Part shown: piece by piece, positions 29,801 through 64,000 of the stretch
Position numbering within the stretch: position 1 is the first letter of the stretch
Layout of the letters: the number at the start of each line of letters is the position of its first letter
Assembly (NCBI GenBank): GCA_000004985.1
Contig: GG738913.1
Source of the DNA: Naegleria gruberi
Lineage: Eukaryota
Length of the DNA stretch: 64,000 bases
Direction: 5' to 3' (one strand)
The notes under the pieces: model-generated
Database searches by the model: none
The model's input: the letters and a program-made list of their open reading frames with translations, nothing else
What the model was told of the DNA's origin: nothing
Translations under genes and position numbers: made by a program

Positions 29801-30934
29801 GAGTTCTCTAATGTCATATCCAAAATCCAATGGATCTGTATTTGTTTCATAATCCATTAATAAATTGAATGCTTGATGAATTTTATCATCCATGATAAAT
29901 TGAAAAGCTTTTTGAATTATTGAATGATCTTTTTTGGTTGGAATCTTAATATTTGGATGTGTGAATTTCATAACAATTTGAGTAGTAGACTTGTAATTAG
30001 TGATTCCTTCGATAGTTACAAATAGTCCATGAATGGTTTCTTGAATATTAGTGAATTTTGTTTGTTTCAATTTTGAACCTTCTTGGTGTTGGCTCATTAA
30101 TTCTTCTACAGTCAATGTCTGAAATAAATCAACACTTTTGTCTTTGTTAATATTGTAAAATTGTAATGTTTTTCCATCATGTGAAATACAGGAAGCTAAT
30201 ATTGGTTGACAAATTGAAATTCTCTTAAAAAAATAACCATTAAAAGTGATATCATTCTTTTCAATATTTGAAATCAATTGAGCAACAACTTGAATCTCTG
30301 TCTTTCCATTTCTAATATCGGCTTCATCTCCATTCAACACAATCTCTTTCAAAATTGTTTCGGTTTTGTAATCATACACTACATACACATTCCTAAATCT
30401 CAATACCATACTATTTGCGAGAAAAATCAATGAATCACATCTTTTAGATTCAAATTTCTCCAAATTAAATCTTTTTTCAAAAGATAGAAATAAAAAAGTC
30501 ACTGGTAATTTTCTGTAAACTGTAAATCGAAATTCCTTTCCCCAAACAATACAAAAAGAATCGTCTAAACTTTGTAAAGGAATTCTTCTTGTACAAGAAA
30601 TCAATTCTCCTGTTTCTTTCTTTTGGAAAATGGAATTTCTTTCCTTTAGTGTAAAATCCAAATCAGATCCAGTCTTCTGGAATGCGTTACCCTCAAATTT
30701 AATTGTCAGCTCTTTTCCTAAAGCTGAAAAACTGTAAGAAAAGAGTTGTACAATAGAATTCACACCTTCACCTTGTAAACTTTTATCAATTACTGTTGAG
30801 TAATGAACAAGCAACATTCCTTTTTCTTCATGACATTCAATTTTTTGAATGGAACAAGTTTCGGGTGAATTTTCTTGGAATAAATGTTGGTGGTGAAAAC
30901 TTACCACAAAATAATTCCCAAATTTGTTCCACAA
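26894..30934 (-). CDS. Large protein with C-terminal DUF4116 repeats followed by a protein kinase domain (HRDLKLAN, DFD). It carries one in-frame TAA at 27562..27560.
   Basis: A 992-aa ORF (30934..27956) holds DUF4116-type repeats (FASExFKxDxxxxLxAV...) in its last about 250 aa. The kinase exons are 27977..27722 and 27678..26894. The intron between them, 27721..27679 (43 nt, GTATGT..CAG), reconstitutes HR|DLKLANVIIN. The splice upstream of 27977 is uncertain; one candidate is donor cccGTAAAA with acceptor tgCAG. The activation segment reads GTW-TAA-YLAPEV. Confidence 0.5.
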
Positions 30935-39745: not shown

Positions 39746-39795
39746 NNNNNNNNNNNNNNNNNNNNNNNNNNNNNNNNNNNNNNNNNNNNNNNNNN
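39746..39795. other. Assembly gap, one of seven N-runs: 39746-39795, 42290-42339, 57445-57619, 60059-60108, 61092-61141, 62170-62219 and 63343-64000.
   Basis: Runs of n in the sequence. Six of them are exactly 50 nt, which is the scaffolder default. Confidence 1.
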
Positions 39796-41369: not shown

Positions 41370-42650
41370 ATGCAACATTGGTTAGTTGGTGATTTGATAT
41401 CTGTGATTGCTCCATTCCTCTCCGTCCGAGAGAGGATAATCTTTACTAGAATCAACAGGACATGGTATCATACAATTCACATGTTGCAAAATATGTGGAA
41501 GGATGTTTATTGCAATTTATATCAATTTGATAGGACTGTTGATCCTTTTCCAATAGATGATGACTGTGATGATGAAATGGACAATGAAAATACGGATTGG
41601 TTCAAAAAGCTATGCACTTGTTTCAACAAGTTCCCTAAAAAGATTAAAATTGAAATCAAAATGGAAAACTCGGAACAAATAATATCATCCAAAAAGTTTG
41701 ATTCTACATGTTATGGAAATATAAATCTAATATTTCCATGGAGTTTGGACATTCTAGAGGGTAAAATTGAAAGATATCAAATGGCATTACAAGATGGCCA
41801 AGAAGCTGATCTCTGTGTATTCCAAGAATGTTCCACCTATTTCCAATTCAATTTTAATTTGAGAGAATACTATGATGATATCAGATCTATTCATGGTGCC
41901 CAGGCAGCACGTTCCAAGCTAAAGAGCATTTACACTTGTTGTTTGTTCTATGAAATTATGAGTTTGGGACATTATGTTCCCAATCTCTTTCAAGATCAAG
42001 CAAGAATACATCCTTGCTCACTTTCTTCAGAGAATAGCACTCGAGTACCACTTGCTACTCTACTATTTGCCACTCTCAATGATTGCTATCCTTGGGAGGA
42101 TCTAGAGGATTTAGATTACTGTAATATTTCTCCAAACTTTGATGGTCCTGCTTGTTTGTGGTTATCGAGTGATAAATTCATGGAAATTATAGAGTCAATC
42201 TATTTCGACTTTGAGGAGAAGGAATTTAATCAATTAGAGAAGGAAACATTCAAGGCATTTGGTAGAATTGATGGTCAAAGTCCGTCTTTNNNNNNNNNNN
42301 NNNNNNNNNNNNNNNNNNNNNNNNNNNNNNNNNNNNNNNCATTGGTTAGTTGGTGATTTGATATCTGTGATTACTCCATTCCTCTCCGTCCGAGAGAGGA
42401 TAATCTGTACTAGAATCAACAGGAATTTAATCAATTAGAGAAGGAAACATTCAAGGCATTTGGTAGAATTGATGGTCAAAGTCCGTTCTTTTACTTTGAT
42501 GCCGGAGGAGTAATTGAAGAGGTTATACACAATGTAAGCTTTGAAATTGTTCAGCCTCAATCTGCTTCTTCTTTATTGGATGCCATCGATGAGGAGGGAA
42601 AGAAGAGCATTGTGAAGGTAACGAGGCAGGAAGCAAGAAGTTTTTTTTGA
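41370..42650 (+). CDS. Hypothetical Cys-rich protein spanning the 42290..42339 gap.
   Basis: The 328-aa ORF runs into the N-gap. The same frame resumes after it (EFNQLEKETFKAFGRIDGQSPFFYFDAGGVIEEV...). Sequence on both sides of the gap duplicates nearby text: 42340-42415 repeats 41386-41455 and 42421-42485 repeats 42225-42288. Local assembly is unreliable. Confidence 0.3.
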
Positions 42651-47372: not shown

Positions 47373-47443
47373 GGGGCGGTGGTGTAATGGTAACATCGCA
47401 GCCTCCAAAGCTGTGGCCGGGGGTTCGATTCCCCCTCGCCCCC
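47373..47443 (+). tRNA. tRNA-Trp (anticodon CCA).
   Basis: Cloverleaf folded by hand. Acceptor GGGGCGG/TCGCCCC. D-arm GTGT-AATGGTA-ACAT. Anticodon stem GCAGC/GCTGT with loop CTCCAAA (anticodon CCA at 47405-47407). 4-nt variable loop. T-arm GGGGG-TTCGATT-CCCCC. Discriminator C. Confidence 0.85.
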
Positions 47444-47676: not shown

Positions 47677-49275
47677 ATGACAGCAACCGCTATGACAGCT
47701 GCTGACCTACAAAAATCCAAAAAAATGTCATTTAGAAACAAGACGAATCCGCCTAAAGTATGCAAATGTCTTCCTAAAATTCCATTCGAAGTGTTGATTG
47801 GTTGTTTTCAAGAGAGTGAAAGGGTTTCGTTTCAAAGTGCTTCAAGTTTTTATTCGAATGCTTTTGGTCAAGGAAGACGAAACACCTTTTCTGGAAAGAG
47901 TTGTCTGTATCGAACTGTAGACTTACGAACAAAATTTGAAGAATATCTTTACGATAACTTGCCAATATTCGACAGTGAAGTCATTTGTCAAAAATTACAA
48001 TTTCTTGACATTTTCTGTGAGTCAATGAAAATCAAAGGAAAACCTCTCTATCACATTAGAGATGTCTTTTCACTTTGCAATACTTATCTTTATGAACTCA
48101 TTAAGGGTATTGAACAAGATGGTTCTGTCATTATCCACAACAATAGTTTGGAATATTCCTTCCTTAAACAGTTTAGTTGTGTTGTGAGTGAGAATGAAGA
48201 GTTGTTGCCAGTTTTTTCCAGTCATGAATATTTGAAGAGTTGGTTTAGTAAGAAACAGAAAGAATTGTTGGAATGGAAAGTGGACGAAACTTTTCAGCAC
48301 ACAACTGAGGAATATCAAGATGATCAACTTGGCATTTTGATCACCATGTTTGTCAATCAAATGCATGGACATTTCTTATATTTCCAAGAAAAGAATTCCA
48401 AATATTGCAAAAAATGGATGCAAGAAAACATTACAGAGCTACCGAAACATTTATTCGAATGTCTAAAAAGTGCTGCAGAAAAAACACAAAAATACAGAGA
48501 TCATCTTGCCTACAGCCACAACGATGGCTTTTCCATTCCCAAAATTATCGATGCAGATTTTGAGATTATCCACCACTTGTCGAATCTCAGAAGTTCCAGT
48601 TGGAAAATGCTTTCCATCAGCAAACTCAATGAAATTCTTTCATTTTCATCAACGGAGAATTTCACATCTTGTCCAAAAGGAAAAATTCACAAATTTGTAT
48701 ATTATGAACCTTACAATATTCTCCAGTTGACCAAAGCAATGTTATCATACAAATATGATCGTCCTTCTGAATTTTACAAACTTGGTGAGTGTCAAGAATA
48801 TCAAAAACTAGATGTCAATAATTCTTCCAAAAAGTATTCGACAGTTGTCATGCCTGTCAGTTTACAACTCAACTCTATCCTGCCAAAACGTCAAACCACA
48901 TCAATCTTTGCCACCAAAGCAAAATTCATCAATACTGAACTAGTCGAAACTACTTTCCTTTACAAATCATGCAATTCAGATACCAAGAATCCATACCTCA
49001 CACTTGGTGGATTTATCCTACAAAAAGACGATACGAATCGAACAAGAATAATCGATTCGAAAATGTATCATTTTGGAGGAATTTTACAAACTGATTTTGC
49101 GTTGAGTTTATTTGTGGCAAAATCAAGGAAAGAGTTGAAACCGAGGGTTGAGTGGATGATGGAGAAGGTGAGGGAGAAAGGTTTCGTATTGGATGAAGAG
49201 AAGGAATTGGTGTGGAGAACGTTTTGTGAATATTGTAGAGAATATTTTAAGGTGGATCCGAATGAATTGGAATAA
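47677..49275 (+). CDS. Member B (532 aa) of the tandem paralog family.
   Basis: About 45-50% identity to 49493..51127 across the full length: ...KYCKKWMQENITELPKHLFECLK / KYCKKWLQDNLPILPKHLFEDLK; TLGGFILQKDDTNRTRIIDSKMYHFGGILQTDF / TVGGFIIQKDDVDRCRIIDLKMFNMGGFLQSDF. Confidence 0.5.
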   Translation: MTATAMTAADLQKSKKMSFRNKTNPPKVCKCLPKIPFEVLIGCFQESERVSFQSASSFYSNAFGQGRRNTFSGKSCLYRTVDLRTKFEEYLYDNLPIFDSEVICQKLQFLDIFCESMKIKGKPLYHIRDVFSLCNTYLYELIKGIEQDGSVIIHNNSLEYSFLKQFSCVVSENEELLPVFSSHEYLKSWFSKKQKELLEWKVDETFQHTTEEYQDDQLGILITMFVNQMHGHFLYFQEKNSKYCKKWMQENITELPKHLFECLKSAAEKTQKYRDHLAYSHNDGFSIPKIIDADFEIIHHLSNLRSSSWKMLSISKLNEILSFSSTENFTSCPKGKIHKFVYYEPYNILQLTKAMLSYKYDRPSEFYKLGECQEYQKLDVNNSSKKYSTVVMPVSLQLNSILPKRQTTSIFATKAKFINTELVETTFLYKSCNSDTKNPYLTLGGFILQKDDTNRTRIIDSKMYHFGGILQTDFALSLFVAKSRKELKPRVEWMMEKVREKGFVLDEEKELVWRTFCEYCREYFKVDPNELE

Positions 49276-49492: not shown

Positions 49493-51127
49493 ATGAAAAA
49501 CGAAGAGAATCATTTTCAAACATTAAAAAAAAATAACTTAACAACCTATTCGAAATCCTATTCGAAAGGTCCATTAGAAATGTCGAGTGATGGTTATGAA
49601 CTGTTAACGATTCCACTTGAAGCTGTTATTGGCTTTAAAAACGTTCTCTCCAAGAAATCTTCTTCCCAAACATTAAAATCTAGCCGAAGTGTTTCGTCCG
49701 CAGCCAAGACGAAACCTACACAATCTAACGTGGAAGAAATTCGATACAAATTCGAAGAATATATTTCTTCAGGTGAATTAGAAGAATCCTCACAAATTTC
49801 CCTTCAAAAACTTCAACTTTTGGATTGGTTTTATGATCCAAAAAGGAAAAGATCAATAACTGTGAAAAATCAAGTGGAATTATTCACAACATGTAATTCG
49901 TATCTGTTCGATTTGATTAAACAGAGTGATGAGTCAGGATTGATGATTCAGGAAGATCAGAGTGTGGAGTTTCCATTTCTGTCACAATTTGATGTCATTG
50001 TGCAGGAAAATCAAAAGATTTTGCCAATTTTTTCATCACACAAATATTCGAAAGAGTGGTTTTTGAAGAAACAACAAGAATTGAAAGAGTTTCAACAGAA
50101 AAGATCATCCACCTCGACAGGAATTGATCTATCGTCTGAAGATATTGCCAGGGATTATGAGGAATTTCAAGATTATCAATTGGATATTTTGGTTGTAATG
50201 ATTATCAATCAAATGAAAGATTATTTCAGTTATTTCCATAATGAAAATGCAAAATATTGTAAAAAATGGTTGCAAGATAATTTGCCAATTCTACCAAAAC
50301 ACTTGTTTGAAGATTTAAAGATCAAACATGACAGAATTCAAAAGTTTAAAGATTTACTTTCGTATAAGGAACAAGATATGGTCTATAGCACGATACTTGA
50401 TTCAGATTTTGAATTTATTAAGCATTTATCTGAAAGTACATCCGATTGGAAACTATTCGAAAAATCTAAAATTAACTCAGTTCATGTCTTTACCTCAAAA
50501 GAGAATTACACGAGTGTTTCTGGCACAAAAACCATGAAATATGTCTATTATCATCCGTACGATATTCACAAAGCAAGTAAGGGGTTTCTCTCGTTTGATT
50601 TTGCAGAACAAGATGGCATGTTCACTTGTGGAGAATTTAGAGATTACAAACAATTGGATATTAACAATTCATCCAGAAAGTATTCAAGTGCAGTTCGTTC
50701 ATGTACAATAGATCTAGGGAAATTCTTCTCCAAACGTCATAATGAAACTGTTGTGACTTCTAAGGCCAAATTCATTGGTAATGAGCTAGTAGAAACCATT
50801 ATACTTTACAAATCATGTAACAGTGATACTACACAAAAAAACAAATTCCTAACTGTTGGTGGATTTATTATTCAGAAAGATGATGTTGACAGATGCAGAA
50901 TCATTGATTTGAAAATGTTTAACATGGGTGGTTTTTTACAGAGCGATTTCATTGTAAACTTTGGAATTAAAAATCATTTGAAACAGATGGGACCCATGGT
51001 AAGTCAAATGATGAAAGAAGTTGAGGAAAGTAATTACAAAATTGATTCAGAAAACAAACCAATTTGGAGAACATTTTGTGATTATTGTAGAGAACATTAC
51101 AAAATTGATGCTAACCTGCTTGAATAA
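49493..51127 (+). CDS. Member C (544 aa) of the tandem paralog family.
   Basis: See 47677..49275. Confidence 0.5.
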   Translation: MKNEENHFQTLKKNNLTTYSKSYSKGPLEMSSDGYELLTIPLEAVIGFKNVLSKKSSSQTLKSSRSVSSAAKTKPTQSNVEEIRYKFEEYISSGELEESSQISLQKLQLLDWFYDPKRKRSITVKNQVELFTTCNSYLFDLIKQSDESGLMIQEDQSVEFPFLSQFDVIVQENQKILPIFSSHKYSKEWFLKKQQELKEFQQKRSSTSTGIDLSSEDIARDYEEFQDYQLDILVVMIINQMKDYFSYFHNENAKYCKKWLQDNLPILPKHLFEDLKIKHDRIQKFKDLLSYKEQDMVYSTILDSDFEFIKHLSESTSDWKLFEKSKINSVHVFTSKENYTSVSGTKTMKYVYYHPYDIHKASKGFLSFDFAEQDGMFTCGEFRDYKQLDINNSSRKYSSAVRSCTIDLGKFFSKRHNETVVTSKAKFIGNELVETIILYKSCNSDTTQKNKFLTVGGFIIQKDDVDRCRIIDLKMFNMGGFLQSDFIVNFGIKNHLKQMGPMVSQMMKEVEESNYKIDSENKPIWRTFCDYCREHYKIDANLLE

Positions 51128-51663
51128 ATTGGGTAACCAATTTAATCTTTACTGAAAGCGTGACATGAAAATGATTAGTTTTTATCCTTAATTGGTTGAA
51201 TAACATTTTCATATAGTAAATTGAACATTTTGGTGAAATTGCAAATGTCAGATTTACCCTCATTCTCAATAACATCCTTCAACAATTGAATAATCACATC
51301 AAAATTATTAAATTCCTTCATTTTCTTATTGAGTTCATTCAATTTTAATTCTTAAATTTCCATTTTCCCATTTAAATATTTCAGAAATTGAAACATTACA
51401 AACAATTGCCAAAAATAATTGTGACAAAAAAGCAATACTATAATAATCATGTTCTTTTGTAAATTGAATTAATTCATTTGTTAAATTGGTGAATCTACTT
51501 TTGTGTGAATTGAATTACATGATTGATCACACTCCAAGGTATCACATCACTTGTTAATTATCTACCATCATGTCATTCCAAAAGCTATTTTAAAACTGAC
51601 ACAAAGGTCCAAAAAAAAATACAACAACAACATCTTTACACACCATTAACAAAATAGTTTCGA

Positions 51664-53149: not shown

Positions 53150-54831
53150 ATGTCCAAACTTGTCTTCAGCAGCAGCACTGATGTATCACCTCAAGAAATA
53201 ACAAGAGAAAAGAACAAAGAATCCGATGACGAGGAAATAGAAATTGAAGAAAAGTTTCAACGAAAGGAATTGTTGTCTTCATCCAATACATCTAATAGAA
53301 AAATGAGAAGAAGAGGCTCTGTGATGGTTTATGAAAGTTTTTTCTCATCAGAAAATAATATCCTCAATATTTACCCACAAGCGAAAAGTAATATCCAAGA
53401 ATATTTCAAAAATAGTGAGTTCAAGTTTGAAGAAGAAATTAGTATTACAAAATCAATTTTTGAAAAAGAAACAATGCATTTAGTTCTTGTCCCCTATTCG
53501 AAATTGAATGAATTTGATTTGAATTCATGTTCCAAAGTAATGGTTCTTGGTTTTTTAGTACTGACCAGTTTGCAAGGTTTTGTTTTCAAAATCAATAGCA
53601 AAAAGCTGCAATTTCAAAAACAGGATCCAAATACTGAAGAAGAACAAACTGACAATGATGATGAAAGAAATTCATCCAATAAGAGAAAAAGAAATATGAA
53701 AGAAAATGGATCAAAGAAAAGAAAAGTTTCAACAATCACCAAAGAAATTAATTACTCTGATAATTTGAAAGAAATACTTCAAGAATATGAAATTAATGGT
53801 AAAATTGCTACGAAAATAAGAAATGATGATAAGGTAGCTCTCTATTTTAAACTTGATAATGGGTTTTTAAAGATAATTCACTATTTTGATAATAGTTCAG
53901 AGAATGTGAAAGGCATGCAAATTATCAAATCCATTCAGCATGACAATATTAATCAGATTTTTCAATTTAAGAAACTGTCCATAACTAGCTCACAATTAGA
54001 TGAATTGTTTTTTGAAAACATTTCAGTTACAACCAAATCAGAACCAACAATATTTGATAGAGGATGGATTATCGTTGAGAATAAATTTCAACACTTCCAC
54101 ATAGGTTCCACAACAGTCAATCACTCGAACAGTATTCAATAACATTTTCACAATTTGTTGGTGATATTATTACTTTCATTATTTACCTGAACCAAAAAGA
54201 TTTGAATACCAAATTATTATGTTTTATCAAGTTAATGATGGATGCTATTGAAGCAGTTAATATATTACATGAAAATAATATTATTCATTGTGATATTTCA
54301 ATTAGAAATGTTGGCATGTTATTTACAAAACATGTCATGACATCATATGCCAAAGAAAAAAGCTCAATATTGGAAGCATTGCCAAATGTTTCAAACTGTA
54401 ATTTCATTTTGATTGATTTCAATCATTGTAAAGTGGAAGGACAAGAACAAGCAACATTGAACATTTTTCCAGAATGTAATTTTAAAAAAGAAAATATTTT
54501 CTTTCCATTTATATCAGAGGCATACTATCCTACAGATGAATTGGTTCAATTTACAAAAGAACATGATTATTATAGTATTGCTTTAGTTTTGTCACAATTA
54601 TTTTTGGCAATTGTTTGTAATGTTTCAATTTCTGAAATATTTAAATGGGAAAATGGAAATTTAAAAGAATCAGTATTGAGCGAACTCAATAAGAAAATGA
54701 AGGAATTTAATAATTTTGATGTGATTATTCAATTGTTGAAGGATGTTATTGAGAATGAGGGTAAATCTGACATTTGCAATTTCACCAAAACATTCAATTT
54801 ACTATATGAAAATGTTATTCAACCCAATTAA
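53150..54831 (+). pseudogene. Copy 1 of a protein-kinase-like gene with degenerate catalytic motifs (HCDISIRNV / LIDFNHCKV). Disrupted relative to copy 2 at 61142..62351.
   Basis: Two ORFs (53150..54142 and 54202..54831) lie in different frames. Copy 2 reads through the same region in one frame (…SEPTIFVTFSQFVGDIITFIIYLNQNDLNTKLL…). Copy 1 has an insertion of about 83 nt carrying a TAA after ...SEPTIF, plus a 1-nt indel. No GT..AG pair rescues the frame. Confidence 0.4.
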
Positions 54832-54904
54832 GGATAAAAACTAGTAGTAAAGTATACATCATTGTTGCAACAAATTTTGTTATGATATAATGTGTGAGTA
54901 TTAT

Positions 54905-56993
54905 TTATTGAATGAAACATTTCTTCTTTTCATCATCAATTTCCGAATCAAATTGTGAATCTTCATCAGCACCACCACTCTTTGATTGCTTCTTCTTCAA
55001 TCTCTTTCTATATTTTTCCATCTTTTTTTCATATTCCTCAACTTGTTTAAAGTATGAATCTGGTGGCCATTTGTTTTCAGTAACATGTTTCAGATTTTCA
55101 CCTGTCAAAAGTTCCCATTCCCTTCTTGCTTTCATTGGACCATAATTTGTAGAGATGAAATGGAGACAAAAGTTGGCCAATTGATTGGCTTCATAAGTTT
55201 GAGCTAGTAATAGTAGACCTATAATGTCAATGTCAGCTTTTTCAATTCCTTGAGCAACTGATTTGTCAATATTTTTCGAGATGAAAATTTCACACATTGA
55301 GGTCAATCCAGACATGCCATATTCGTTGGCCAAGCTCAACAATCCAACAGCATTTCTTTCATTGATGGTAGAGTGAGCAGAGTACAGATATTCGAATAGG
55401 GCGTGGAATTCACTTATTCTATTCTCATTCTCACCAATTTCACCACTCAAATCTACTTGCCTTGATGAGTGCTCTACGAAATTGCCCTCAAACATTGTTC
55501 TGAATACATCACAATTAGCAGAGAGGAATAGTTTGTGTCCCTGAAAATTCTTGGAAGAATCAGTTGTGGAAAAGACAATTTCGACATCGGAGTGAGTTTT
55601 CTTATCAAAGTACTTTTTCTTAATTTCACTACCCAATAGATCATTAAGATAGGTTTCAATACTTTCATTGAACACATCTTCCTCTCCTCTCTGGTAATTA
55701 CTGACTATATTGTCAGTGTATTCACATTCAAAGATGGTAGATGCAATCTTGACCTTATTGAGAAATTGATCTTTTTTACACCTTTCCAGCATAGTTTCCG
55801 ATCCTCCATAATATTGGATTTCCAATAGGGATTTGAAAGCCCTATGATGAATAGTGTTGGAGAGTCTGAATTTCAATATATTCGGCTCATTCTCATCAAT
55901 AGAGACAGATGAGAAACCACTCACTCTACCTCCATTAATTTTGGCACTCAATTTTTCAAATGCTTCATGTGAATAGCTATTCATTCCAGCATCTCTACAC
56001 ACCAATACGTCATCGAATAATTTTCTAATAACTTTGGAGGGAACACAAGCCAACACCAATGAATGGGCCTTAATTTCCACATCAATGTCCTTAGTGGAAT
56101 TGTAAATAACAAACTTGGTATCACAGCAAAAATCACTATCCAGAAGGTTTTTAAAACCCTTGCCATAATTTGAGCTTTCCACATAAATCCAAGGAGCTTT
56201 ACCAGCTGGAGGCATTACAGGAGGAGTTGGTTCAATATCTTCAGAGTTTCCAATCACTACCTTCTTTCTTCCTTTTTTTGAAGATTTGGACTCGTCAATT
56301 GCTTGTGAAATTGCCAAATTGAAGAGTTTATCAATATTGTACATGGTTCTAGAGCTTGTAACAATGGATCCTGAAGCAGGTGAGTTCTGTACCATTTGCT
56401 CAATCATTTCCTGAGTGATTATTGAGTCACGATCCGCATCAGAGACAAGATCACTCTTACACCCAACCAATATGATCTATTTGAATAGAAAGGGAATATT
56501 AAATGAATACATTGGTATATGGAATGGTCAACTTACTGGAATATCAGGACAGTGATGAATCAATTCTGGAATCCATTTTGATTTGACATTTGCAAATGAA
56601 GCTCGATTGACCATTGAAAAACTGAATCATTTTGTTAGAGAAATAACCACTGAAAAACATACCAAACAAAGAAGACATCAGTTCCTGGATATGAAAGAGG
56701 TCTCAATCTGTCATAATCTAGTCAATTGTCAAATTGTCACAATTATTAACAACAATTTCAACATACCTTCTTGACCAGCAGTATCCCACAATCCAACATT
56801 ATAATTTCTATTTCCATATGTCACATTAGCACTCTTCCGAAATCAATTTAACTGTCATCAAATTACTTACGTAATTGTCAAAAACTGTTGGAACATAATC
56901 TTCGGGAAATGAATTTGTGGTGGAGGCAATCAAAAGACAACTCTTTCCGACGGCGCCATCACCAACAACTACCAATTTCAAGCTATTGTCCAT
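54905..56993 (-). CDS. racA: RhoBTB-type atypical Rho GTPase (Rho GTPase domain plus two BTB domains). Three exons.
   Basis: Exon 1 is 56993..56871 ([41 protein letters not shown]). Intron 1 is 37 nt (GTAAGT..AAG). Exon 2 runs 56833 to about 56768 ([22 protein letters not shown], donor GTATGT). The last exon is 56476..54905 ([10 protein letters not shown]... then two BTB-like regions and a basic/acidic tail). The GTPase plus tandem BTB architecture is that of RhoBTB, as in Dictyostelium RacA. Confidence 0.7.
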
Positions 56994-57674
56994 TATTATG
57001 TACACGTTGATGTGAGTTTGTTATTTTTTTTTGATTTTGTTTTCAAAGTACCATTGAACAAGGAACTCTTACAAAAATTTGATTAATGATTACTTTATTC
57101 AGATTTAAGATCATAATTAAAATTCAAAAACAACTTTATTAGTAGGATAGTTTGTAAACTTCAATTTCTTCAACTTTGCATTTCAACAATCTATAAAAAA
57201 AATAGTCAACATTCTTCTACTCTAGGAGGACATGATGATTTTCGGAGTGGTTTTACATCATGAAACTACCAAACTTTCACAGCATCATCTCAACATCATC
57301 TAAATAGTAGTAATAGTAATAATTGTTTTTGGTGGATTATCATCATCATTTTGGAATTTATTTTTCATGATGGAAAATCACACGTTGATGTTTAATCATC
57401 CGATCATTCACCTACCATCATCAATGTTGTTTTACATTAAAATANNNNNNNNNNNNNNNNNNNNNNNNNNNNNNNNNNNNNNNNNNNNNNNNNNNNNNNN
57501 NNNNNNNNNNNNNNNNNNNNNNNNNNNNNNNNNNNNNNNNNNNNNNNNNNNNNNNNNNNNNNNNNNNNNNNNNNNNNNNNNNNNNNNNNNNNNNNNNNNN
57601 NNNNNNNNNNNNNNNNNNNCATCATTCTGTTTTATGCTTCTCCAATAGGAAAATGGTGGAGTGATAGGGTTTTT

Positions 57675-58373
57675 ATGATTGAGGCATTGAAGAGTGATGT
57701 ATGTTTAATAAGAAACTGTTCTGAGGAAATACGGACTGATAGAGAAATTATTGACATGATTATTGACATAGATGCAGCAAGTTCTTTTCAATATATTGGA
57801 AAATTCAAGGAAGATGAAGATATTGTGAAAAAGGCACTATTTAAATCAAACTTCACGATTCTACATTATATCAATAGTGATTTTCTGCTTAATAATAGAG
57901 AACTAGTTCTCACAATATTGAAAAGTAACGGAAAGTATATTAACGAAATGCCAGAGGCAATCCAAAAGGATAGAGAATGCTTTTTCCTAGCTGCAAGAAC
58001 GCCTTATTTTACATCCAAAGTTCAATCTCTTTACAAAATAATAGAGAGTGACAGAGAGGATTTCAAATCAATTCTGCAATTTAATCCGGACCTTTTGGAG
58101 AAGACCATTTTCAAAGACGACAGAGAGCTTCTTAAAGAGGCTCTTTCACACTGTGGATTTTGTCTCAGATTTGCAAGTGAAGAATTCAAGGCAGATAAGG
58201 AACTTGTTTTGACAGCCGTAACAAAAAATGGATCTGCCCTTATGTATGCCTCTCCAAAACTCAAAGATTGTGAAGAGATTGTCTTGGCAGCTGTAACGAA
58301 TGATGGAAAAGCAATTCGATTTGCTTCAAAGAGATTATCGAATCAGAAAACTCTAAATTGTAATATTTATTAA
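57675..58373 (+). CDS. DUF4116-repeat protein (232 aa visible). The N-terminus may be lost in the 57445..57619 gap.
   Basis: Repeats of about 35 aa: CGFCLRFASEEFKADKELVLTAVTKNGSALMYASPKLKDCEEIVLAAVTNDGKAIRFASKRLSN. Same repeat type as in the 26894..30934 kinase. Confidence 0.45.
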   Translation: MIEALKSDVCLIRNCSEEIRTDREIIDMIIDIDAASSFQYIGKFKEDEDIVKKALFKSNFTILHYINSDFLLNNRELVLTILKSNGKYINEMPEAIQKDRECFFLAARTPYFTSKVQSLYKIIESDREDFKSILQFNPDLLEKTIFKDDRELLKEALSHCGFCLRFASEEFKADKELVLTAVTKNGSALMYASPKLKDCEEIVLAAVTNDGKAIRFASKRLSNQKTLNCNIY

Positions 58374-58999
58374 CGTCTCTGGTCTACAATGAGTATACAC
58401 ATTTTGGCGATCGACGATTGGCGAAAATTGCCACTTGAATTTTACGAATAGTTTCATTCGCTTAATGAAATTGGAGATCTCCAGATGAAAATTGCGATTG
58501 GTTTTTTGAAAAAGACCAAAATTCCAACATATGTGGGATATTTGTTATTAAAATTACAAAGAAATTCTTTTAGAAGAGTCAACACCATATTTTCTAGCAT
58601 CTACATAATCCTTTGGATCTTGTGAATATCTCAGTATCACAAATGGAATCACTCTCACAGTAGCCATTCCAATAATTCACTTCATCAAGTACATCATACC
58701 TCTGTTGATTCTTGGTGTAATTTCACATCTATTAACTCCAAGAATTTCACCACATCATCTCATCATGATTTAAATAATTTTATATTGCCACTAAAATCAG
58801 ATTCACATGATAATTTGGAAAACTTTCAATCTAGTATTGTTCAGCATGGTCGATCCCATCAGATAAAATCACTTCCGAATATTTTCCTATTGGTTATCAT
58901 GATGATAGGTACATGTATTCCATATCATAAACATTCGGAATGAATTCAACATCTTTTCCCTTAAAACCAGCTAATCTTCATTAAGGAACCTTAAAAAAA

Positions 59000-60058
59000 A
59001 TGAGATTCGTCAGAGAGCGTCTTGAAGTCGTTACCTGTTACATTCCTTTCAGTGGTGAGGCGGTTGGTGATAACACTTCTCAAACTTTCCAGAAGACTCC
59101 TGGTAAGAACCATTATCCATCCAATGCTTGCTTTAACGTTTTTTGGTATCAACAACCAACATGGACACCACCTATCTGCAAGTATCTAATAGAATATTAT
59201 GATACTCTCAAATCATTACCAAGTGCTTCGGAAGGTACTAGTGCTGTTGTTAGATTAAGTTCCACAAGAAAAACTGGTAACAACGCTTTTATTAGAAGTT
59301 CAGGCTCTGGATTTTACATTCTTCCCAACACAATTATTACAAATAGTCATGTTGAAGCTGAACTTGAGAGAATTGGTGGTAAAATAACTGCATTCAGCAA
59401 TGCATGGAACAATAGCAATTCAACAATTTTGCCTACCAGGATCAGAACCTTGCATTCTGGGAAAACTATCAAAGATTCCCAATTGGGTAATTTATTTCCG
59501 GTCACTTATAGTTGGGTTGGAAGAGATCCTATCACTACCAAAGTAGGAGACTTTGATTACTTTGATGTCACCGCAATGGACTTTACTACTGGTTCTCTTG
59601 GTAATAAGGTTTTTTTCATTCCTTCTCCAAGAATTTTGCAACCTAATGATGAAATTATTTCTCTTTCTTATCCAGGAGACAAGCATCAACAACCTCCTTA
59701 TTCTAGTAGCCTTACTTATGTTGATTGGGCTCCAAGTGAATCCTTTTTGAAGGACAATATCTTTAATGGCTACGGAAAGTTATGTGCAAGTGTTGGGACG
59801 ATTATGCACCCATACAAATTGTCAGAAAATGGATTTGTAGAAAAAGATGAAAACTTTCGTTACGATTCGTCTAATCAAGAATGTTTGGCAAGCTCTGAAT
59901 GCTTAATATATGGAAGTTCTGGTGGTGTTATGATTTCAAAATTCTCACAAGTGTATCAAATTGGAGAGTATACATTAGTTGAGTTTAATGCTATCCACAC
60001 TGGTGGAGAGTTTGTTCGATGTTCAGATTGTTTGAAAGAAAGTTCATCTGCTTACATA
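59000..60058 (+). CDS. Trypsin-like (chymotrypsin-fold, Trypsin_2-type) serine peptidase. The 3' end runs into the 60059..60108 gap.
   Basis: NAFIRSSGSGFYILPNTIITNSHV (His region) ... DFDYFDV (Asp) ... CLIYGSSGGVMISKF (GxSGG Ser motif), in the canonical His-Asp-Ser order. Confidence 0.45.
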
Positions 60059-60695
60059 NNNNNNNNNNNNNNNNNNNNNNNNNNNNNNNNNNNNNNNNNN
60101 NNNNNNNNTTCTATATCATTATAGATCATGTACATCAGGTTGGTAAAGTTTCAATAAGTGGTCCTTTTTCAAGATTTCATCCTATTCGTCATAGTTGAAG
60201 AAGTGTGATTGAGGGAAGAAATCTTTAAATATGAAAGTTAAAATAAATTTGATGTTCGATGTATACTCACCAAATGGAACATTTTCATGTCAGGATTCAA
60301 TATGTTTTGATGAGAAACTCAAAAGTTATAGTTGACCTATTTTACTTCACAACTTCCCTTTTCACTTCATACTTTTATATCTACAGACTTGAACTTTTGA
60401 AATTTCATATGAAAGTGATTATAAATGTTGTTAATGGTGATATAGACTATATAATCTCATTAAAGGATTTTGAAATTATCATTCTTCCTATAGTTTCATT
60501 TATGAAATTTTAATCTGACATTATTTACAAAGTTAATATTTTATAAATTGAAAAACTAAATATACCACGTTGTTCTACTCATCATTTCCTATCGAATGAT
60601 ATAAAATTTAATGATATTTGAATAAGTTTATAATTTTGGGCTAGGGTTTGAAGGTTGGGTTTAGAATAATTCTATTTTTAGAATTGGGTTTGGGT

Positions 60696-61091
60696 TTGGG
60701 TTTGGGTTTGGGTTTGGGTTTGGGTTTGGGTTTGGGTTTGGGTTTGGGTTTGGGTTTGGGTTTGGGTTTGGGTTTGGGTTTGGGTTTGGGTTTGGGTTTG
60801 GGTTTGGGTTTGGGTTTGGGTTTGGGTTTGGGTTTGGGTTTGGGTTTGGGTTTGGGTTTGGGTTTGGGTTTGGGTTTGGGTTTGGGTTTGGGTTTGGGTT
60901 TGGGTTTGGGTTTGGGTTTGGGTTTGGGTTTGGGTTTGGGTTTGGGTTTGGGTTTGGGTTTGGGTTTGGGTTTGGGTTTGGGTTTGGGTTTGGGTTTGGG
61001 TTTGGGTTTGGGTTTGGGTTTGGGTTTGGGTTTGGGTTTGGGTTTGGGTTTGGGTTTGGCCCTGGGTTTGGGTTTGGGTTTGGGTTTGGGT
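60696..61091. repeat. (GGGTTT)n telomere-like hexamer microsatellite of about 66 units with one variant unit. Degenerate TAGGGTTTGAAGGTTGGGTTTAG units precede it at 60638-60670. It ends in an N-gap.
   Basis: Read directly. ORFs 60641..61183 (PKPKPK...) and the first 150 aa of 60648..62351 (GLGLGL...) are translations of this repeat, not genes. Confidence 0.95.
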
Positions 61092-61141
61092 NNNNNNNNN
61101 NNNNNNNNNNNNNNNNNNNNNNNNNNNNNNNNNNNNNNNNN

Positions 61142-62351
61142 ATATTTATTCACAGTGCCAAGTATCATCAAAGAATATTTCAAAAATAGTGAATTTAGAT
61201 TTGAAGAAGAAATTAGTATTACAAAATCAACATTTGAAACTGAAACAATGCTCTTAACGCTTGTACCTTATTCGAAATTGAATGAATTTGATTTGAATTC
61301 ATGTACCAAAGTAATGGTTGTTGGTTTTTTAGTTCTGACCAGTTTACAAGGTTTTATTTTCCAAATCGATAGCAAAAAGCTGCAATTTCAAAAACAGGAT
61401 CCAAATACTGAAGAACAAACTGAAAAGCATGATGAAGAGAATTCATCCAATAAGAGAAAAAGAAATAATAGCAAAGAAACAGGATCAAAGAAAAGAAAAG
61501 TTTCAACAATCACCAAAGAAATTAATTATTCTGACAATTTGAAAGAAATACTTCAAGAATATGACATTAATGGTAAAACAGCTACGAAAATAAGAAATGA
61601 TGATAAGGTAGCTCTTTATTTTAAACTTGATAGTGGGTTTTTAAAGATAGTTCACTATTTTGATAATAGTTCAGAGAATGTGAAAGGCATGCAAAGTATC
61701 AAATCCATTCAACATGACAATATTAATCAGATTTTTCAATTCAAGAAACTCTCCATAACTATCTCACAATTAGATGAATTGTTTTTTGAAAGAATTTCAC
61801 TTACAACCAAATCAGAACCAACAATATTTGTAACATTTTCACAATTTGTTGGTGATATTATTACTTTCATTATTTACCTGAACCAAAATGATTTGAATAC
61901 CAAATTATTATGTTTTATCAAGTTAATGATGGATGCTATTGAAGCAGTTAATATATTACATGAAAATAATATTATTCATTGTGATATTTCAATTAGAAAT
62001 GTTGGCATGTTATTTACAAAACCTGTCATGACATCATATGCCAAAGAAAAAAGCTCAATATTGGAAGCATTGCCAAATGTTTCAAACTTTAATTTCATTT
62101 TGATTGATTTCAATCATTGTAAAGTGGAAGGACAAGAACAAGCTAAATGGAACATTTTTCCAGAATGTANNNNNNNNNNNNNNNNNNNNNNNNNNNNNNN
62201 NNNNNNNNNNNNNNNNNNNAATTTTGATGTGATTATTCAATTGTTGAAGGATGTTATTGAGAATGAGGGTAAATCTGACATTTGCAATTTCACCAAAACG
62301 TTCAATTTACTATATGAAAATGTCATTCAACCAATTAAGAATAAAAACTAG
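61142..62351 (+). CDS. Copy 2 of the kinase-like gene (duplicate of 53150..54831). It begins in a gap, contains an internal gap at 62170..62219, and has a continuous reading frame.
   Basis: About 90% nt identity to copy 1 over 53370..54831. Single frame through the region where copy 1 is broken. Confidence 0.45.
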
Positions 62352-62377
62352 TAAAGTTTACATCATTGTTTGAATAT

Positions 62378-63342
62378 TTATTGAATGAAACATTTCTTCT
62401 TTTCATCATCAATTTCCGAATCAAATTGTGAATCTTCATCAGCACCTCCACTCTTTGATTGCTTCTTCTTCAATCTCTTTCTATATTTTTCCATCTTTTT
62501 TTCATATTCCTCAACTTGTTTAAAGTATGAATCTGGTGGCCATTTGTTTTCAGTAACATGTTTCAGATTTTCACCTGTTAAAAGTTCCCATTCCCTTCTT
62601 GCTTTCATTGGACCATAATTTGTAGATATGAAATGGAGACAAAAGTTGGCCAATTGATTGGCTTCATAAGTTTGAGCTAGTAACAGTAGACCTATAATGT
62701 CAATGTCAGCTTTTTCAATTCCTTGAGCTACTGATTTGTCAATATTTTTCGAGATGAAAATTTCACACATTGAGGTCAATCCAGACATGCCATATTCGTT
62801 GGCCAAGCTCAACAATCCAACAGCATTTCTTTCATTGATGGTAGAGTGAGCAGAGTACAGATATTCGAATAGGGCATGGAATTCACTTATTCTATTCTCA
62901 TTCTCACCAATTTCACCACTCAAATCTACTTGCCTTGATGAGTGCTCTACGAAATTGCCCTCAAACATTGTTCTGAATACATCACAATTAGCAGAGAGGA
63001 ATAGTTTGTGTCCCTGAAAATTCTTGGAAGAATCAGTCGTGGAAAAGACAATTTCGACATCGGAGTGAGTTTTCTTATCAAAGTACTTTTTCTTAATTTC
63101 ACTACCCAATAGATCATTAAGATAGGTTTCAATACTTTCATTGAACACATCTTCCTCTCCTCTCTGGTAATTACTGACTATATTGTCAGTGTATTCACAT
63201 TCAAAGATGGTAGATGCAATCTTGACCTTATTGAGAAATTGATCTTTTTTACACCTTTCCAGCATAGTTTCCGATCCTCCATAATATTGGATTTCCAATA
63301 GGGATTTGAAAGCCCTATGATGAATAGTGTTGGAGAGTCTGA
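62378..63342 (-). CDS. racA: Copy 2 of the last racA (RhoBTB) exon. About 99% identical to 54905..55870. Truncated by the terminal N-run at 63343..64000.
   Basis: Near-identical sequence. For example, 62385..62618 matches 54912..55145 with one substitution. Confidence 0.55.
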
Positions 63343-64000
63343 NNNNNNNNNNNNNNNNNNNNNNNNNNNNNNNNNNNNNNNNNNNNNNNNNNNNNNNNNN
63401 NNNNNNNNNNNNNNNNNNNNNNNNNNNNNNNNNNNNNNNNNNNNNNNNNNNNNNNNNNNNNNNNNNNNNNNNNNNNNNNNNNNNNNNNNNNNNNNNNNNN
63501 NNNNNNNNNNNNNNNNNNNNNNNNNNNNNNNNNNNNNNNNNNNNNNNNNNNNNNNNNNNNNNNNNNNNNNNNNNNNNNNNNNNNNNNNNNNNNNNNNNNN
63601 NNNNNNNNNNNNNNNNNNNNNNNNNNNNNNNNNNNNNNNNNNNNNNNNNNNNNNNNNNNNNNNNNNNNNNNNNNNNNNNNNNNNNNNNNNNNNNNNNNNN
63701 NNNNNNNNNNNNNNNNNNNNNNNNNNNNNNNNNNNNNNNNNNNNNNNNNNNNNNNNNNNNNNNNNNNNNNNNNNNNNNNNNNNNNNNNNNNNNNNNNNNN
63801 NNNNNNNNNNNNNNNNNNNNNNNNNNNNNNNNNNNNNNNNNNNNNNNNNNNNNNNNNNNNNNNNNNNNNNNNNNNNNNNNNNNNNNNNNNNNNNNNNNNN
63901 NNNNNNNNNNNNNNNNNNNNNNNNNNNNNNNNNNNNNNNNNNNNNNNNNNNNNNNNNNNNNNNNNNNNNNNNNNNNNNNNNNNNNNNNNNNNNNNNNNNN

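What the first reader, a model, noticed from the sequence alone, without database searches (positions are those of the whole stretch)
53150..63342. Segmental duplication of a kinase-like gene plus racA (RhoBTB) with unequal divergence between the two halves
53150..56993 (kinase-like gene then racA on the opposite strand) reappears at 61142..63342 in the same relative arrangement. The racA part is about 99% identical. The kinase-like part is only about 90% identical, with many non-synonymous differences. Two explanations fit that pattern. A real duplication could have kept racA homogenised by gene conversion while leaving the neighbour free to diverge. Alternatively the scaffold could be a collapsed-haplotype or chimeric artefact. 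Copy 2 is flanked by the telomere-like repeat and three gaps, so an artefact must be excluded first.
Basis: seen in the sequence. Interest (0 to 1): 0.55.

Follow-up and report, generated by a model that had tools for sequence, protein, structure and literature searches.

The report
Unmerged second copy at Naegleria chromosome end
A 2.4-kb stretch near a Naegleria gruberi chromosome end appears twice in the draft assembly, but the second copy is two read-sized fragments placed beyond the telomere repeat, so it is probably an unmerged alternative version of the same locus; this is ordinary for a heterozygous draft genome.

Summary
The repeat is real in the sequence, but its limits differ from the finding. 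Copy 2 (61142-62169 and 62220-63342) matches only 53367-54478 and 54712-55869 of copy 1, and it is cut by gaps on both sides and in the middle.

The unequal divergence is also real, but it does not follow gene borders. A sharp change-point lies inside the kinase-like gene, at an 83-nt insertion that only copy 1 carries (54057-54139). Left of it, synonymous divergence (dS) is 0.12-0.27. Right of it, dS is 0.016 in the kinase 3' part and 0.038 in racA. All 7 racA differences are synonymous. The pattern therefore reflects mosaic ancestry, such as a gene-conversion or recombination tract ending at a heterology. It is not racA-specific homogenisation, and it is not sequencing error.

The window is N. 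gruberi NEG-M. Copy 2 lies distal to 68 TTTGGG repeats, the candidate telomere, which point outward. It consists of 1028- and 1123-nt contigs with no unique flanks. The right-hand part differs by 0.7%, close to the published allelic average of 0.58%.

My best reading (about 0.5) is an uncollapsed haplotype misplaced by the scaffolder. A real tandem duplication across an interstitial telomere array (about 0.27) and a collapsed paralogous chromosome end (about 0.18) are not excluded. Interest is low.

The parts
53150..54056 (+). Copy 1, kinase-like gene, 5' segment (302 codons, open frame). The part from 53367 onward is the old-divergence segment.
   Evidence: ORF. Compared with copy 2, dS is 0.27 (53369-53698) and 0.12 (53699-54055), with dN/dS 0.36. 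Derived changes are symmetric, 25 in copy 1 and 22 in copy 2.
54057..54139 (+). 83-nt insertion present only in copy 1. It shifts the frame and brings a TAA stop at 54140-54142. It marks the divergence change-point.
   Evidence: Absent from copy 2 and from outgroup L001. Its ends are AT...AA, and the boundary cannot be shifted, so it is not a GT-AG intron, whereas the racA introns are 37-60 nt GT-AG. No source found in the window or in the fetched loci. Change-point at 54027, interval 54020-54053.
54140..54831 (+). Copy 1, kinase-like gene, 3' segment with the catalytic-loop-like HCDISIRN and DFN motifs. A 1-nt insertion at 54823 causes an early stop.
   Evidence: 98.2% identical to copy 2 and dS 0.016. 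Sub-threshold Pfam kinase hits. All 39 protein-kinase hits among the 41 PDB hits align this region, with HRDLAARN matching HCDISIRN. The extra C at 54823 is absent from copy 2 and copy 3.
54905..56993 (-). Copy 1 racA (RhoBTB-type: Rho GTPase plus BTB). Five exons; identical to XP_002670692.1 of N. gruberi NEG-M.
   Evidence: All 633 residues of P0060 map exactly, except one residue that spans an exon junction, with four GT-AG introns of 37-60 nt. Pfam Ras E = 4e-41 and BTB E = 4e-22. The best named relatives are racA-like proteins.
51176..51481 (-). Copy 3: an inverted, truncated relic of the kinase-like 3' end, lying inside a gap-free contig.
   Evidence: 94.9% identical to 54532-54843 and 97.7% to 62220-62350, with 3-nt and 2-nt deletions.
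60684..61091 (+). (TTTGGG)68 telomere-type array with the G-rich strand running 5'->3' to the right. Degenerate repeats lie only on its left side.
   Evidence: Tandem repeat finder: period 6, 68 copies, 98% matches. It is the only such array in the window; 64 matches against 0.35 expected. TTTGGG is the in-silico candidate telomere of N. gruberi (PMC3622300).
61142..62169 (+). Copy 2, contig a (1028 nt). It holds kinase-like codons from about 73 to 415, in an open frame without the 83-nt insertion.
   Evidence: Flanked by 50-N gaps at 61092-61141 and 62170-62219.
62220..63342 (.). Copy 2, contig b (1123 nt). It holds the kinase-like 3' end (62220-62351, + strand), a shorter spacer, and the last 321 codons of racA (62378-63342, - strand).
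   Evidence: 13 substitutions and 3 indels (1, 3 and 31 nt) against 54712-55869. The racA protein is identical to copy 1 over the 320 sense codons compared. Followed by Ns to the end of the window.

Best explanation
Copy 2 is probably not a tandem duplicate at this position. It is a second, genuinely different version of the same ~2.4-kb subtelomeric segment, most likely the other haplotype of heterozygous N. gruberi NEG-M. The Sanger assembler could not merge it with copy 1 because of about 8% divergence and indels of 83, 31, 3, 3, 3, 1 and 1 nt. The scaffolder then placed its two read-sized contigs in the only free space, past the telomere repeat at the end of the chromosome.

The unequal divergence is a real mosaic of ancestry. 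To the right of an 83-nt insertion in copy 1's kinase-like gene, the two versions separated recently (dS 0.016-0.038). To the left they belong to lineages that are at least as old as the split from a sister Naegleria (dS 0.12-0.27). The likely mechanism is that homologous recombination or gene conversion spread from the telomere side and stopped at the 83-nt heterology. Alternatively, the 83 nt is filler left by the event that joined a foreign 5' part to copy 1.

Shown: the repeat, the change-point, the synonymous-site step, the disruption of copy 1, and the layout of telomere array and gaps. Inferred: allelic status, scaffolder behaviour, and the conversion mechanism.
For: 1. The 68 TTTGGG repeats are oriented outward, with degenerate repeats only on the proximal side, and copy 2 lies distal to them (PMC3622300).

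2. The copy 2 contigs are 1028 and 1123 nt long. Each is bounded by N-runs, and both are collinear with copy 1 from first base to last, with no unique junction or flank. Adding the roughly 233 nt that the internal gap stands for gives about 2.4 kb, which would fit the paired end reads of one small-insert clone (inference).

3. Right of the change-point the copies differ by 0.7% in racA and 1.8% in the kinase 3' part. The published average polymorphism for this mosaic heterozygous genome is 0.58% (PMC3507753 citing Fritz-Laylin 2010; heterozygous diploid or polyploid status).

4. The same window holds an independent case of redundant sequence beside a 50-N gap. The contig after 42290-42339 restarts with 41376-41460 joined to 42220-42289, which is an in-frame 759-nt deletion variant of the same gene. 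The assembler therefore leaves structural variants unmerged, and 50 N is a placeholder.

5. The differences are biological, not errors. Transitions and transversions are 28:28. Codon positions 1, 2 and 3 carry 13, 16 and 27 changes. dN/dS is 0.36. Derived changes are symmetric, 25 against 22.

6. The change-point is at 54027 (interval 54020-54053), beside the insertion. There are 8 differences in the 135 nt to its left and 1 in the 192 nt to its right (p = 0.004). Synonymous sites left against right give p = 1.5e-5.
Against: - Left of the change-point, dS (0.18 overall) exceeds the racA dS to a different Naegleria lineage (0.09-0.10). Copy 2 also shares about 3 derived bases with that lineage's racA-adjacent kinase remnant. 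That is unusual for simple alleles. It requires an ectopic (paralogous) origin of one haplotype's 5' part.
- True mates of a haplotig would place it on top of copy 1, not 7.7 kb to the right. The placement argument assumes the scaffolder pushed it to the nearest free space.
- Real duplications of these genes do exist: copy 3 in the same contig, and a racA paralog, XP_002672175.1, on another scaffold.
- I could not establish whether the scaffold ends at 63342 or continues after a real gap of at least 658 N.
- No read-depth data were available.
Confidence: 0.5

Rival explanations
1. The layout is real as assembled. The terminal ~7.7 kb (from about 53367 to the telomere) was duplicated onto the chromosome end, leaving an interstitial TTTGGG array between the two blocks, as with tandem yeast Y' elements. 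Gene conversion keeps the interior of the blocks nearly identical. The edge of the block and the part beyond the 83-nt heterology escape conversion and diverge. The distal copy's racA 5' half and everything beyond it are collapsed onto copy 1 in the assembly.
For: - It explains why the scaffolder placed copy 2 to the right of the telomere contig, in the same order and orientation, with minimal gaps.
- It explains why contig 2a starts where homology to copy 1 is weakest, 84% in the first 100 nt, because edges of converted duplicates diverge most.
- It explains why the left part is far older than allelic level.
- Local duplication has happened here before, as copy 3 shows.
Against: - Contig 2a carries no telomere repeat at its left end, and no junction is visible.
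- The array is 98-99% perfect, which suits a maintained terminal telomere better than an old interstitial relic.
- At normal coverage, the unique parts of a real copy should give deeper and longer contigs than about 1 kb.
- Divergence in the right-hand part matches the allelic average.
Confidence: 0.27
2. Copy 2 belongs to another chromosome end, or another locus, that shares a near-identical distal block with this one. Ectopic subtelomeric conversion homogenises sequence towards the telomere. The identical distal part collapsed in the assembly, and false mate links attached the diverged fragments to this scaffold, making it chimeric. If the scaffold continues after 63342, the sequence that follows would be the flank of that other locus.
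For: - Similarity rises towards the telomere, from 84% to 100%, which is the classic subtelomere pattern.
- The main contig ends at 57444, soon after the racA 5' end, as contigs do at the edges of collapsed repeats.
- A dispersed racA paralog exists on another scaffold.
- The old 5' part fits paralogy.
- If the terminal N-run (at least 658 nt) is a real gap, it could stand for the collapsed remainder of racA.
Against: - A full-dosage paralog should have assembled leftwards into its own unique proximal flank and sat in another scaffold, rather than ending as a 1-kb orphan contig.
- No other kinase-like gene of N. gruberi is present in the protein databases, although copies 1 to 3 are themselves unannotated.
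Confidence: 0.18
3. There is no mosaic. The two copies have one age throughout, and the kinase-like 5' part simply evolves faster, through relaxed or positive selection, while racA is conserved.
For: - racA has dN = 0, and the kinase-like gene looks dispensable. Copy 1 is disrupted, the L001 relative is frameshifted, and L002 keeps only a remnant.
Against: - Synonymous divergence itself steps from 0.12-0.27 down to 0.016-0.038 (Fisher p = 1.5e-5).
- dN/dS in the fast part is 0.36, not 1 or more.
- The step is abrupt and lies inside one gene.
Confidence: 0.03
4. Copy 2 is not a real genomic sequence. It is low-quality reads or a chimeric clone of copy 1.
For: - The contigs are read-sized. Clusters of differences lie within 30 nt of the two ends of contig 2a (53374-53396 and 54453-54458).
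Against: - Excluding the first 40 nt, the left part is still only 92.6% identical.
- The changes respect the codon structure, and the frame stays open for 342 codons.
- About half of the differences are copy-1-derived when judged against the outgroup.
- Several copy 2 states are shared with copy 3 or L001.
Confidence: 0.02

Closest known systems
False segmental duplications caused by uncollapsed haplotypes in whole-genome shotgun assemblies (described by Kelley and Salzberg 2010; cited from my own knowledge, not read here)
   Same: One copy is a small contig flanked by gaps and placed near its counterpart in the same orientation. Identity is high but interrupted by indels. The source genome is heterozygous.
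   Different: The left third is far more diverged (dS 0.18) than ordinary alleles. The fragments sit 7.7 kb away, past a telomere array, rather than in the adjacent gap. Half-depth, the defining test, could not be measured.
Subtelomeric block duplications separated by interstitial telomere repeats and homogenised by ectopic conversion (for example tandem yeast Y' elements; from my own knowledge)
   Same: A telomere-type array lies between two copies of a terminal block. Similarity increases towards the telomere. Pseudogenes and relics of a small gene family lie nearby.
   Different: No junction, second terminal array or independent flank is visible. The array is almost perfect. Nothing comparable has been described for Naegleria, as far as my searches showed.
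Gene-conversion tracts that end at a large heterology
   Same: The step in synonymous divergence is abrupt and lies within about 30 nt of an 83-nt insertion present in only one partner.
   Different: The order of events is unknown: the insertion may have come first and acted as a barrier, or it may be filler created by the event. There is no population or pedigree data.
Dictyostelium RacA and animal RhoBTB proteins
   Same: An N-terminal Rho/Ras-type GTPase domain is followed by BTB and BACK regions. The best named hits are racA and racA-like proteins, at 33-37% identity over 93% of the query.
   Different: Pfam detects only one BTB domain above threshold. The protein is already annotated in N. 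gruberi as 'rho family small GTPase', XP_002670692.1. Its function in Naegleria is untested.

Membership tests
RhoBTB / RacA | N-terminal Rho-family GTPase domain | tested here: met
   Pfam Ras PF00071, E = 4e-41, residues 6-168 of the 633-aa product encoded by 56993..54905.
RhoBTB / RacA | BTB domain or domains C-terminal to the GTPase (two in canonical RhoBTB, the first split) | tested here: inconclusive
   One BTB (residues 398-512, E = 4e-22) and a weak BACK hit are found. A first, split BTB is not detected by Pfam at E <= 0.001. Full-length similarity to racA-like proteins covers 93% of the query.
Eukaryotic protein kinase superfamily (the 'kinase-like' gene) | A significant match to a kinase domain profile | tested here: not met
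   Only sub-threshold hits: Pkinase_fungal at 19.7 bits against a cut-off of 24.1, and PK_Tyr_Ser-Thr at 16.9 against 23.1. PDB phmmer E is about 0.03, although 39 of the 41 hits are protein kinases.
Eukaryotic protein kinase superfamily (the 'kinase-like' gene) | Catalytic motifs: glycine-rich loop, VAIK lysine, HRD...N, DFG, APE | tested here: inconclusive
   Read from the sequence: HCDISIRN aligns with HRDLAARN of ABL1. DFN replaces DFG. A DYYSIALVL motif resembles subdomain IX. No glycine-rich loop is recognisable. The protein works like a divergent kinase or pseudokinase at best. The family is an orphan, with 2 relatives among 1.84 billion representatives.
Haplotype-derived false duplication | One copy is a small contig bounded by gaps, collinear with its counterpart, with no unique junction | tested here: met
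   Contigs of 1028 and 1123 nt between N-runs, collinear with 53367-55869 from end to end.
Haplotype-derived false duplication | Divergence at allelic level | tested here: inconclusive
   The right part differs by 0.7-1.8%, against a genome average of 0.58%. The left part differs by about 8%, with dS 0.18, above the racA dS to a sister lineage.
Haplotype-derived false duplication | The read depths of the two copies sum to single-copy depth | not testable with these tools
   No reads or depth data were accessible. The N. gruberi scaffold itself could not be fetched.
Real tandem subtelomeric duplication with an interstitial telomere array | A sequenced junction from telomere repeat into copy 2, and a second terminal array distal to copy 2 | tested here: not met
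   A 50-N gap separates the array from copy 2. Contig 2a begins without any TTTGGG unit. Only one array is present in the window. Absence from a gapped draft is weak evidence.
Gene-conversion / recombination mosaic | An abrupt, significant change in synonymous divergence along one alignment | tested here: met
   dS is 0.18 left of the step and 0.016-0.038 right of it, Fisher p = 1.5e-5. The maximum-likelihood change-point is at 54027, interval 54020-54053.

The most novel reading that the evidence does not exclude
The scaffold is correct. On this reading a Naegleria chromosome end carries a tandem, Y'-like duplication of its last ~7.7 kb, separated by an interstitial (TTTGGG)n array. Telomere-side gene conversion would be halted at an 83-nt insertion, so that one kinase-like copy decays while the other stays intact. 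That would be the first described case of telomere-mediated subtelomere amplification in a heterolobosean.
Probability: 0.25. Interest if true: 0.45.

Novelty: new member of a known kind. Interest (0 to 1): 0.2.

Why it matters
Mainly as quality control. Anyone counting gene duplicates, RhoBTB genes or interstitial telomere repeats in the N. gruberi NEG-M draft should not take this 'duplication' at face value.

Two small positive points remain.

- The locus gives a clean example of a recombination or conversion tract that ends within about 30 nt of an insertion heterology.
- It reveals an unannotated, orphan kinase-like gene family that is decaying in the N. gruberi lineage. Copy 1 is disrupted, copy 3 is a relic, and the relatives are frameshifted or reduced to remnants.

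If the layout were real, it would say something new about how Naegleria chromosome ends evolve.

Tried and rejected
- **The 83-nt segment as an intron.** Rejected. Its boundaries are AT...AA and cannot be shifted, whereas the racA introns are 37-60 nt GT-AG.
- **The 83-nt segment copied from nearby.** No match of 16 nt or more anywhere in the window or in loci L001-L003.
- **Copy 2 differences as sequencing error.** Rejected on codon-position bias, the transition:transversion ratio, the open frame and polarisation against the outgroup.
- **Selection alone explaining the unequal identity.** Rejected by the step at synonymous sites.
- **Fetching the N. gruberi scaffold to see whether it continues past 63342.** Four exact-protein look-ups found nothing on record. 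Only the scaffold length, 236,320 nt, was obtained. That length does not settle whether the final 658 Ns are a gap or padding.
- **Conserved kinase-racA synteny in relatives.** L002 (93% nt identity in racA) has only a ~120-nt kinase remnant in a different orientation, followed by an unrelated gene. L003 has an unrelated neighbour.
- **Other paralogs of the kinase-like gene.** A word-index search and a full HMMER scan found only P0001 and P0062.
- **The original genome paper and a review.** Neither is held in the library. The heterozygosity figures are therefore second-hand.
- **Structure prediction of the kinase-like protein.** Not attempted. There is no usable alignment depth, and it would not bear on the duplication question.


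Full report
**What the window is.** The sequence is nuclear DNA of Naegleria gruberi strain NEG-M. The 633-residue product of the five-exon gene at 56993..54905 (minus strand) is identical to XP_002670692.1 / EFC37948.1, 'rho family small GTPase [Naegleria gruberi strain NEG-M]'. That protein lies on a 236,320-nt scaffold. GC content is about 33%. The window contains seven N-runs: 39746-39795, 42290-42339, 57445-57619, 60059-60108, 61092-61141, 62170-62219 and 63343-64000. This is a gapped Sanger-era draft.

**Check of the observation.** A direct repeat is present and far beyond chance, but its limits differ from the finding. Copy 2 is two short contigs, 61142-62169 (1028 nt) and 62220-63342 (1123 nt). 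They align to copy 1 at 53367-54478 and 54712-55869. The first 217 nt of the kinase-like gene and the 5' 1.1 kb of racA have no second copy, because copy 2 runs into Ns on both sides. The order and orientation of the genes are the same in both copies.
- racA is 99.3% identical (7 substitutions in 965 nt).
- The kinase-like gene is 91% identical only over its 5' 690 nt, and 98.2% over the next 339 nt.
- Per-100-nt identity climbs from 84 to 100 going left to right.

**Anatomy of the divergence.** I aligned copy 1, copy 2, a third partial copy and a metagenomic relative (L001, about 80% nt identity).
- Copy 1 carries an 83-nt insertion (54057-54139) that copy 2 and L001 lack. It shifts the frame and creates a stop at 54140. 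Its ends are AT...AA and cannot be slid, so it is not an intron. The four racA introns are 37-60 nt and GT-AG. No source for the 83 nt was found.
- Copy 1 also has an extra C at 54823 that brings the stop forward. Copies 2 and 3 lack it.
- Copy 1's kinase-like gene therefore looks disrupted, while copy 2 is open over all 342 visible codons.
- Nei-Gojobori estimates (copy 1 against copy 2):

| Segment | dS | dN |
|---|---|---|
| 53369-53698 | 0.27 | 0.10 |
| 53699-54055 | 0.12 | 0.037 |
| 54142-54477 | 0.016 | 0.019 |
| racA | 0.038 | 0 |

- All 7 racA differences are silent. Synonymous differences left against right of the insertion give Fisher p = 1.5e-5.
- A single-change-point likelihood scan puts the step at 54027, with a 2-logL interval of 54020-54053, about 30 nt from the insertion. 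There are 8 differences in the 135 nt to its left and 1 in the 192 nt to its right, p = 0.004.

**The differences are biological.** Transitions and transversions are 28:28. Codon positions 1, 2 and 3 carry 13, 16 and 27 changes. dN/dS is 0.36. Derived states split evenly, 25 in copy 1 and 22 in copy 2. Against a sister Naegleria lineage (L002, from the same metagenome as L001), racA dS is 0.09-0.10. The left part of the repeat (dS 0.18) is therefore older than that lineage split, and the right part is younger. In a short patch, copy 2 shares about three derived bases with the kinase remnant that sits beside racA in L002. This is weak evidence that copy 2's 5' part is the original neighbour of racA.

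**What the genes are.**
- racA is a RhoBTB-type protein: Pfam Ras E = 4e-41 and BTB E = 4e-22, plus a weak BACK hit. Its best named relatives are racA and racA-like proteins of dictyostelids and animals, at 33-37% identity. N. fowleri and N. lovaniensis orthologues are 52-53% identical.
- The neighbour is only 'kinase-like'. Pfam hits fall below the curated cut-offs. PDB phmmer hits have E about 0.03; 39 of the 41 are protein kinases (the other two are an arginine kinase, a non-homologous phosphagen kinase, and a query-derived row), and these align HCDISIRN with the HRDLAARN catalytic loop. DFG is replaced by DFN, and no glycine-rich loop is evident.
- The kinase-like family is an orphan. There is one relative in 5.8 billion clustered proteins and two in a full HMMER scan of 1.84 billion representatives. 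None is an N. gruberi gene model.
- Its members look decayed: copy 1 is disrupted, copy 3 is a relic, L001 has a 10-nt frameshifting deletion, and L002 keeps about 120 nt.

**Context.** At 60684-61091 there are 68 TTTGGG units on the plus strand at 98% regularity, with degenerate variants only on the left. This is the only such array in the window.
- TTTGGG is the candidate telomere repeat of N. gruberi. That assignment was inferred in silico from position and orientation in the assembly (PMC3622300).
- By general telomere knowledge, the G-rich strand runs 5'->3' towards the chromosome end. The chromosome end therefore points right, and copy 2 lies beyond it.
- The copy 2 contigs are read-sized, have no unique flanks, and together span about 2.4 kb. 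That would fit the paired reads of one small-insert clone (inference).
- The strain is described as a heterozygous mosaic with an average polymorphism of 0.58% (PMC3507753 citing the genome paper). This is close to the 0.7% seen in the racA part.
- The same window shows how this assembly treats structural variants. The contig after the 50-N gap at 42290 restarts with 41376-41460 fused to 42220-42289. That is the same gene with an in-frame 759-nt deletion, leaving 152 nt of redundant sequence.
- Real duplication also occurs in this lineage. Copy 3 (51176-51481, inverted, 95%) lies inside a gap-free contig. A decaying racA paralog (XP_002672175.1, 89% aa identity, GTPase motifs damaged) lies on another scaffold.

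**Weighing the explanations.** All readings agree on two points. Copy 2 is a real, distinct sequence. The unequal divergence is a mosaic of ancestry with its breakpoint at the 83-nt heterology. Conversion or recombination from the telomere side that stops at the heterology is the simplest mechanism. The alternative is that the 83 nt is filler from the event that joined a foreign 5' part to copy 1. The readings differ on where copy 2 lives.
- **An uncollapsed haplotype pushed to the free end of the scaffold (about 0.5).** For it: the position beyond the telomere array, the orphan read-sized contigs, the allelic-level right part, the heterozygous genome, and the precedent at 42290. Against it: the very old left part, and the expectation that true mates should place the contigs on top of copy 1.
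- **A real tandem terminal duplication with an interstitial telomere array (about 0.27).** It explains the placement and the divergent edge. It lacks any visible junction, and the array is nearly perfect.
- **A paralogous chromosome end whose identical distal part collapsed, giving a chimeric scaffold (about 0.18).** It fits the gradient towards the telomere and the contig break at 57444. It does not explain why contig 2a fails to extend into its own unique flank.
- **Selection alone, or sequencing error.** Both are contradicted by the data above.

I could not determine whether the scaffold ends at 63342. The last 658 Ns may be padding or a real gap, and this matters for the second and third readings.

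**Comparison with what is known, and verdict.** The case resembles the well-known false segmental duplications produced by heterozygosity in shotgun assemblies. It also resembles subtelomeric paralogs homogenised by ectopic conversion. Neither would surprise a specialist. racA is already annotated. The kinase-like family is unannotated but appears to be a decaying orphan. I rate the finding as a new member of a known kind, of low interest (0.2). The most novel reading still open is a Y'-like, telomere-mediated subtelomere duplication in Naegleria, at about 0.25 probability.

**What would settle it.** The decisive data are read depth for the version-specific junction k-mers, and long reads across 53-61 kb.

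Noticed in passing
window 41376-42491 (gap 42290-42339): The contig after the 50-N gap restarts with 42340-42424 = 41376-41460 (97.6%), joined directly to 42421-42491 = 42220-42289 (98.6%). This is the same gene (ORF from 41370) with an in-frame 759-nt deletion flanked by AGG microhomology. The gap is probably spurious, and the 152 nt are redundant allelic or clone-variant sequence.
   Followed up: partly
window 51176-51481 (- strand): An inverted, truncated relic of the kinase-like gene's last ~100 codons lies between two unrelated genes in a gap-free contig. It is 95% identical to 54532-54843 and carries 3-nt and 2-nt deletions. With copy 1 it forms a 3.1-kb-spaced inverted repeat around the 51664-53010 gene.
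   Followed up: partly
window 53150-54831 and 61142-62351; loci L001, L002: The kinase-like gene has no N. gruberi gene model. It has only two relatives in 1.84 billion representative proteins: P0001, 74% identical by that scan, frameshifted by a 10-nt deletion in its contig, and P0062, 33% identical. This is an orphan family that seems to be decaying.
   Followed up: partly
protein P0061 = XP_002672175.1 (another N. gruberi scaffold, 312,004 nt): A second annotated racA-type gene is 89% identical to the window's racA. Its GTPase motifs are damaged (GDGAVGKS changed to GDSKVGKS, DTAGQE lost) and it is truncated after residue 491. It is probably a decaying dispersed paralog.
   Followed up: partly
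window 47677-49275 and 49493-51127 (+ strand): Two adjacent genes of 532 and 544 aa are diverged tandem paralogs, sharing 67-72% nt identity over the aligned stretches (162 and 345 nt). The second has no Pfam match; the first was not scanned.
   Followed up: no
window 524-1133 and 8351-8960: A 66%-identical direct repeat pairs two minus-strand ORFs of about 230 aa, which are another pair of local paralogs.
   Followed up: no
window 47373-47443 (+ strand): A tRNA-Trp (CCA) gene, the only tRNA in the window.
   Followed up: no
window 57675-58373 and 27956-30934: Two DUF4116-repeat proteins (Pfam E = 5e-44 and 4e-37). One of them lies between racA and the telomere array.
   Followed up: no
window 59000-60058 (+ strand, runs into gap 60059): The last gene before the telomere contig is an open frame of more than 353 aa with no Pfam hit at E <= 0.01. 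It contains TNSHV and GSSGG motifs reminiscent of a trypsin-like serine protease. That impression comes from reading the sequence only.
   Followed up: no
locus L002 2645-2848: In the sister Naegleria contig, racA is followed within about 90 nt by a ~120-nt kinase-like remnant on the same strand as racA, whereas the two are convergent in the window. An unrelated secreted or membrane protein gene comes next. The racA neighbourhood has therefore been rearranged between close lineages.
   Followed up: partly
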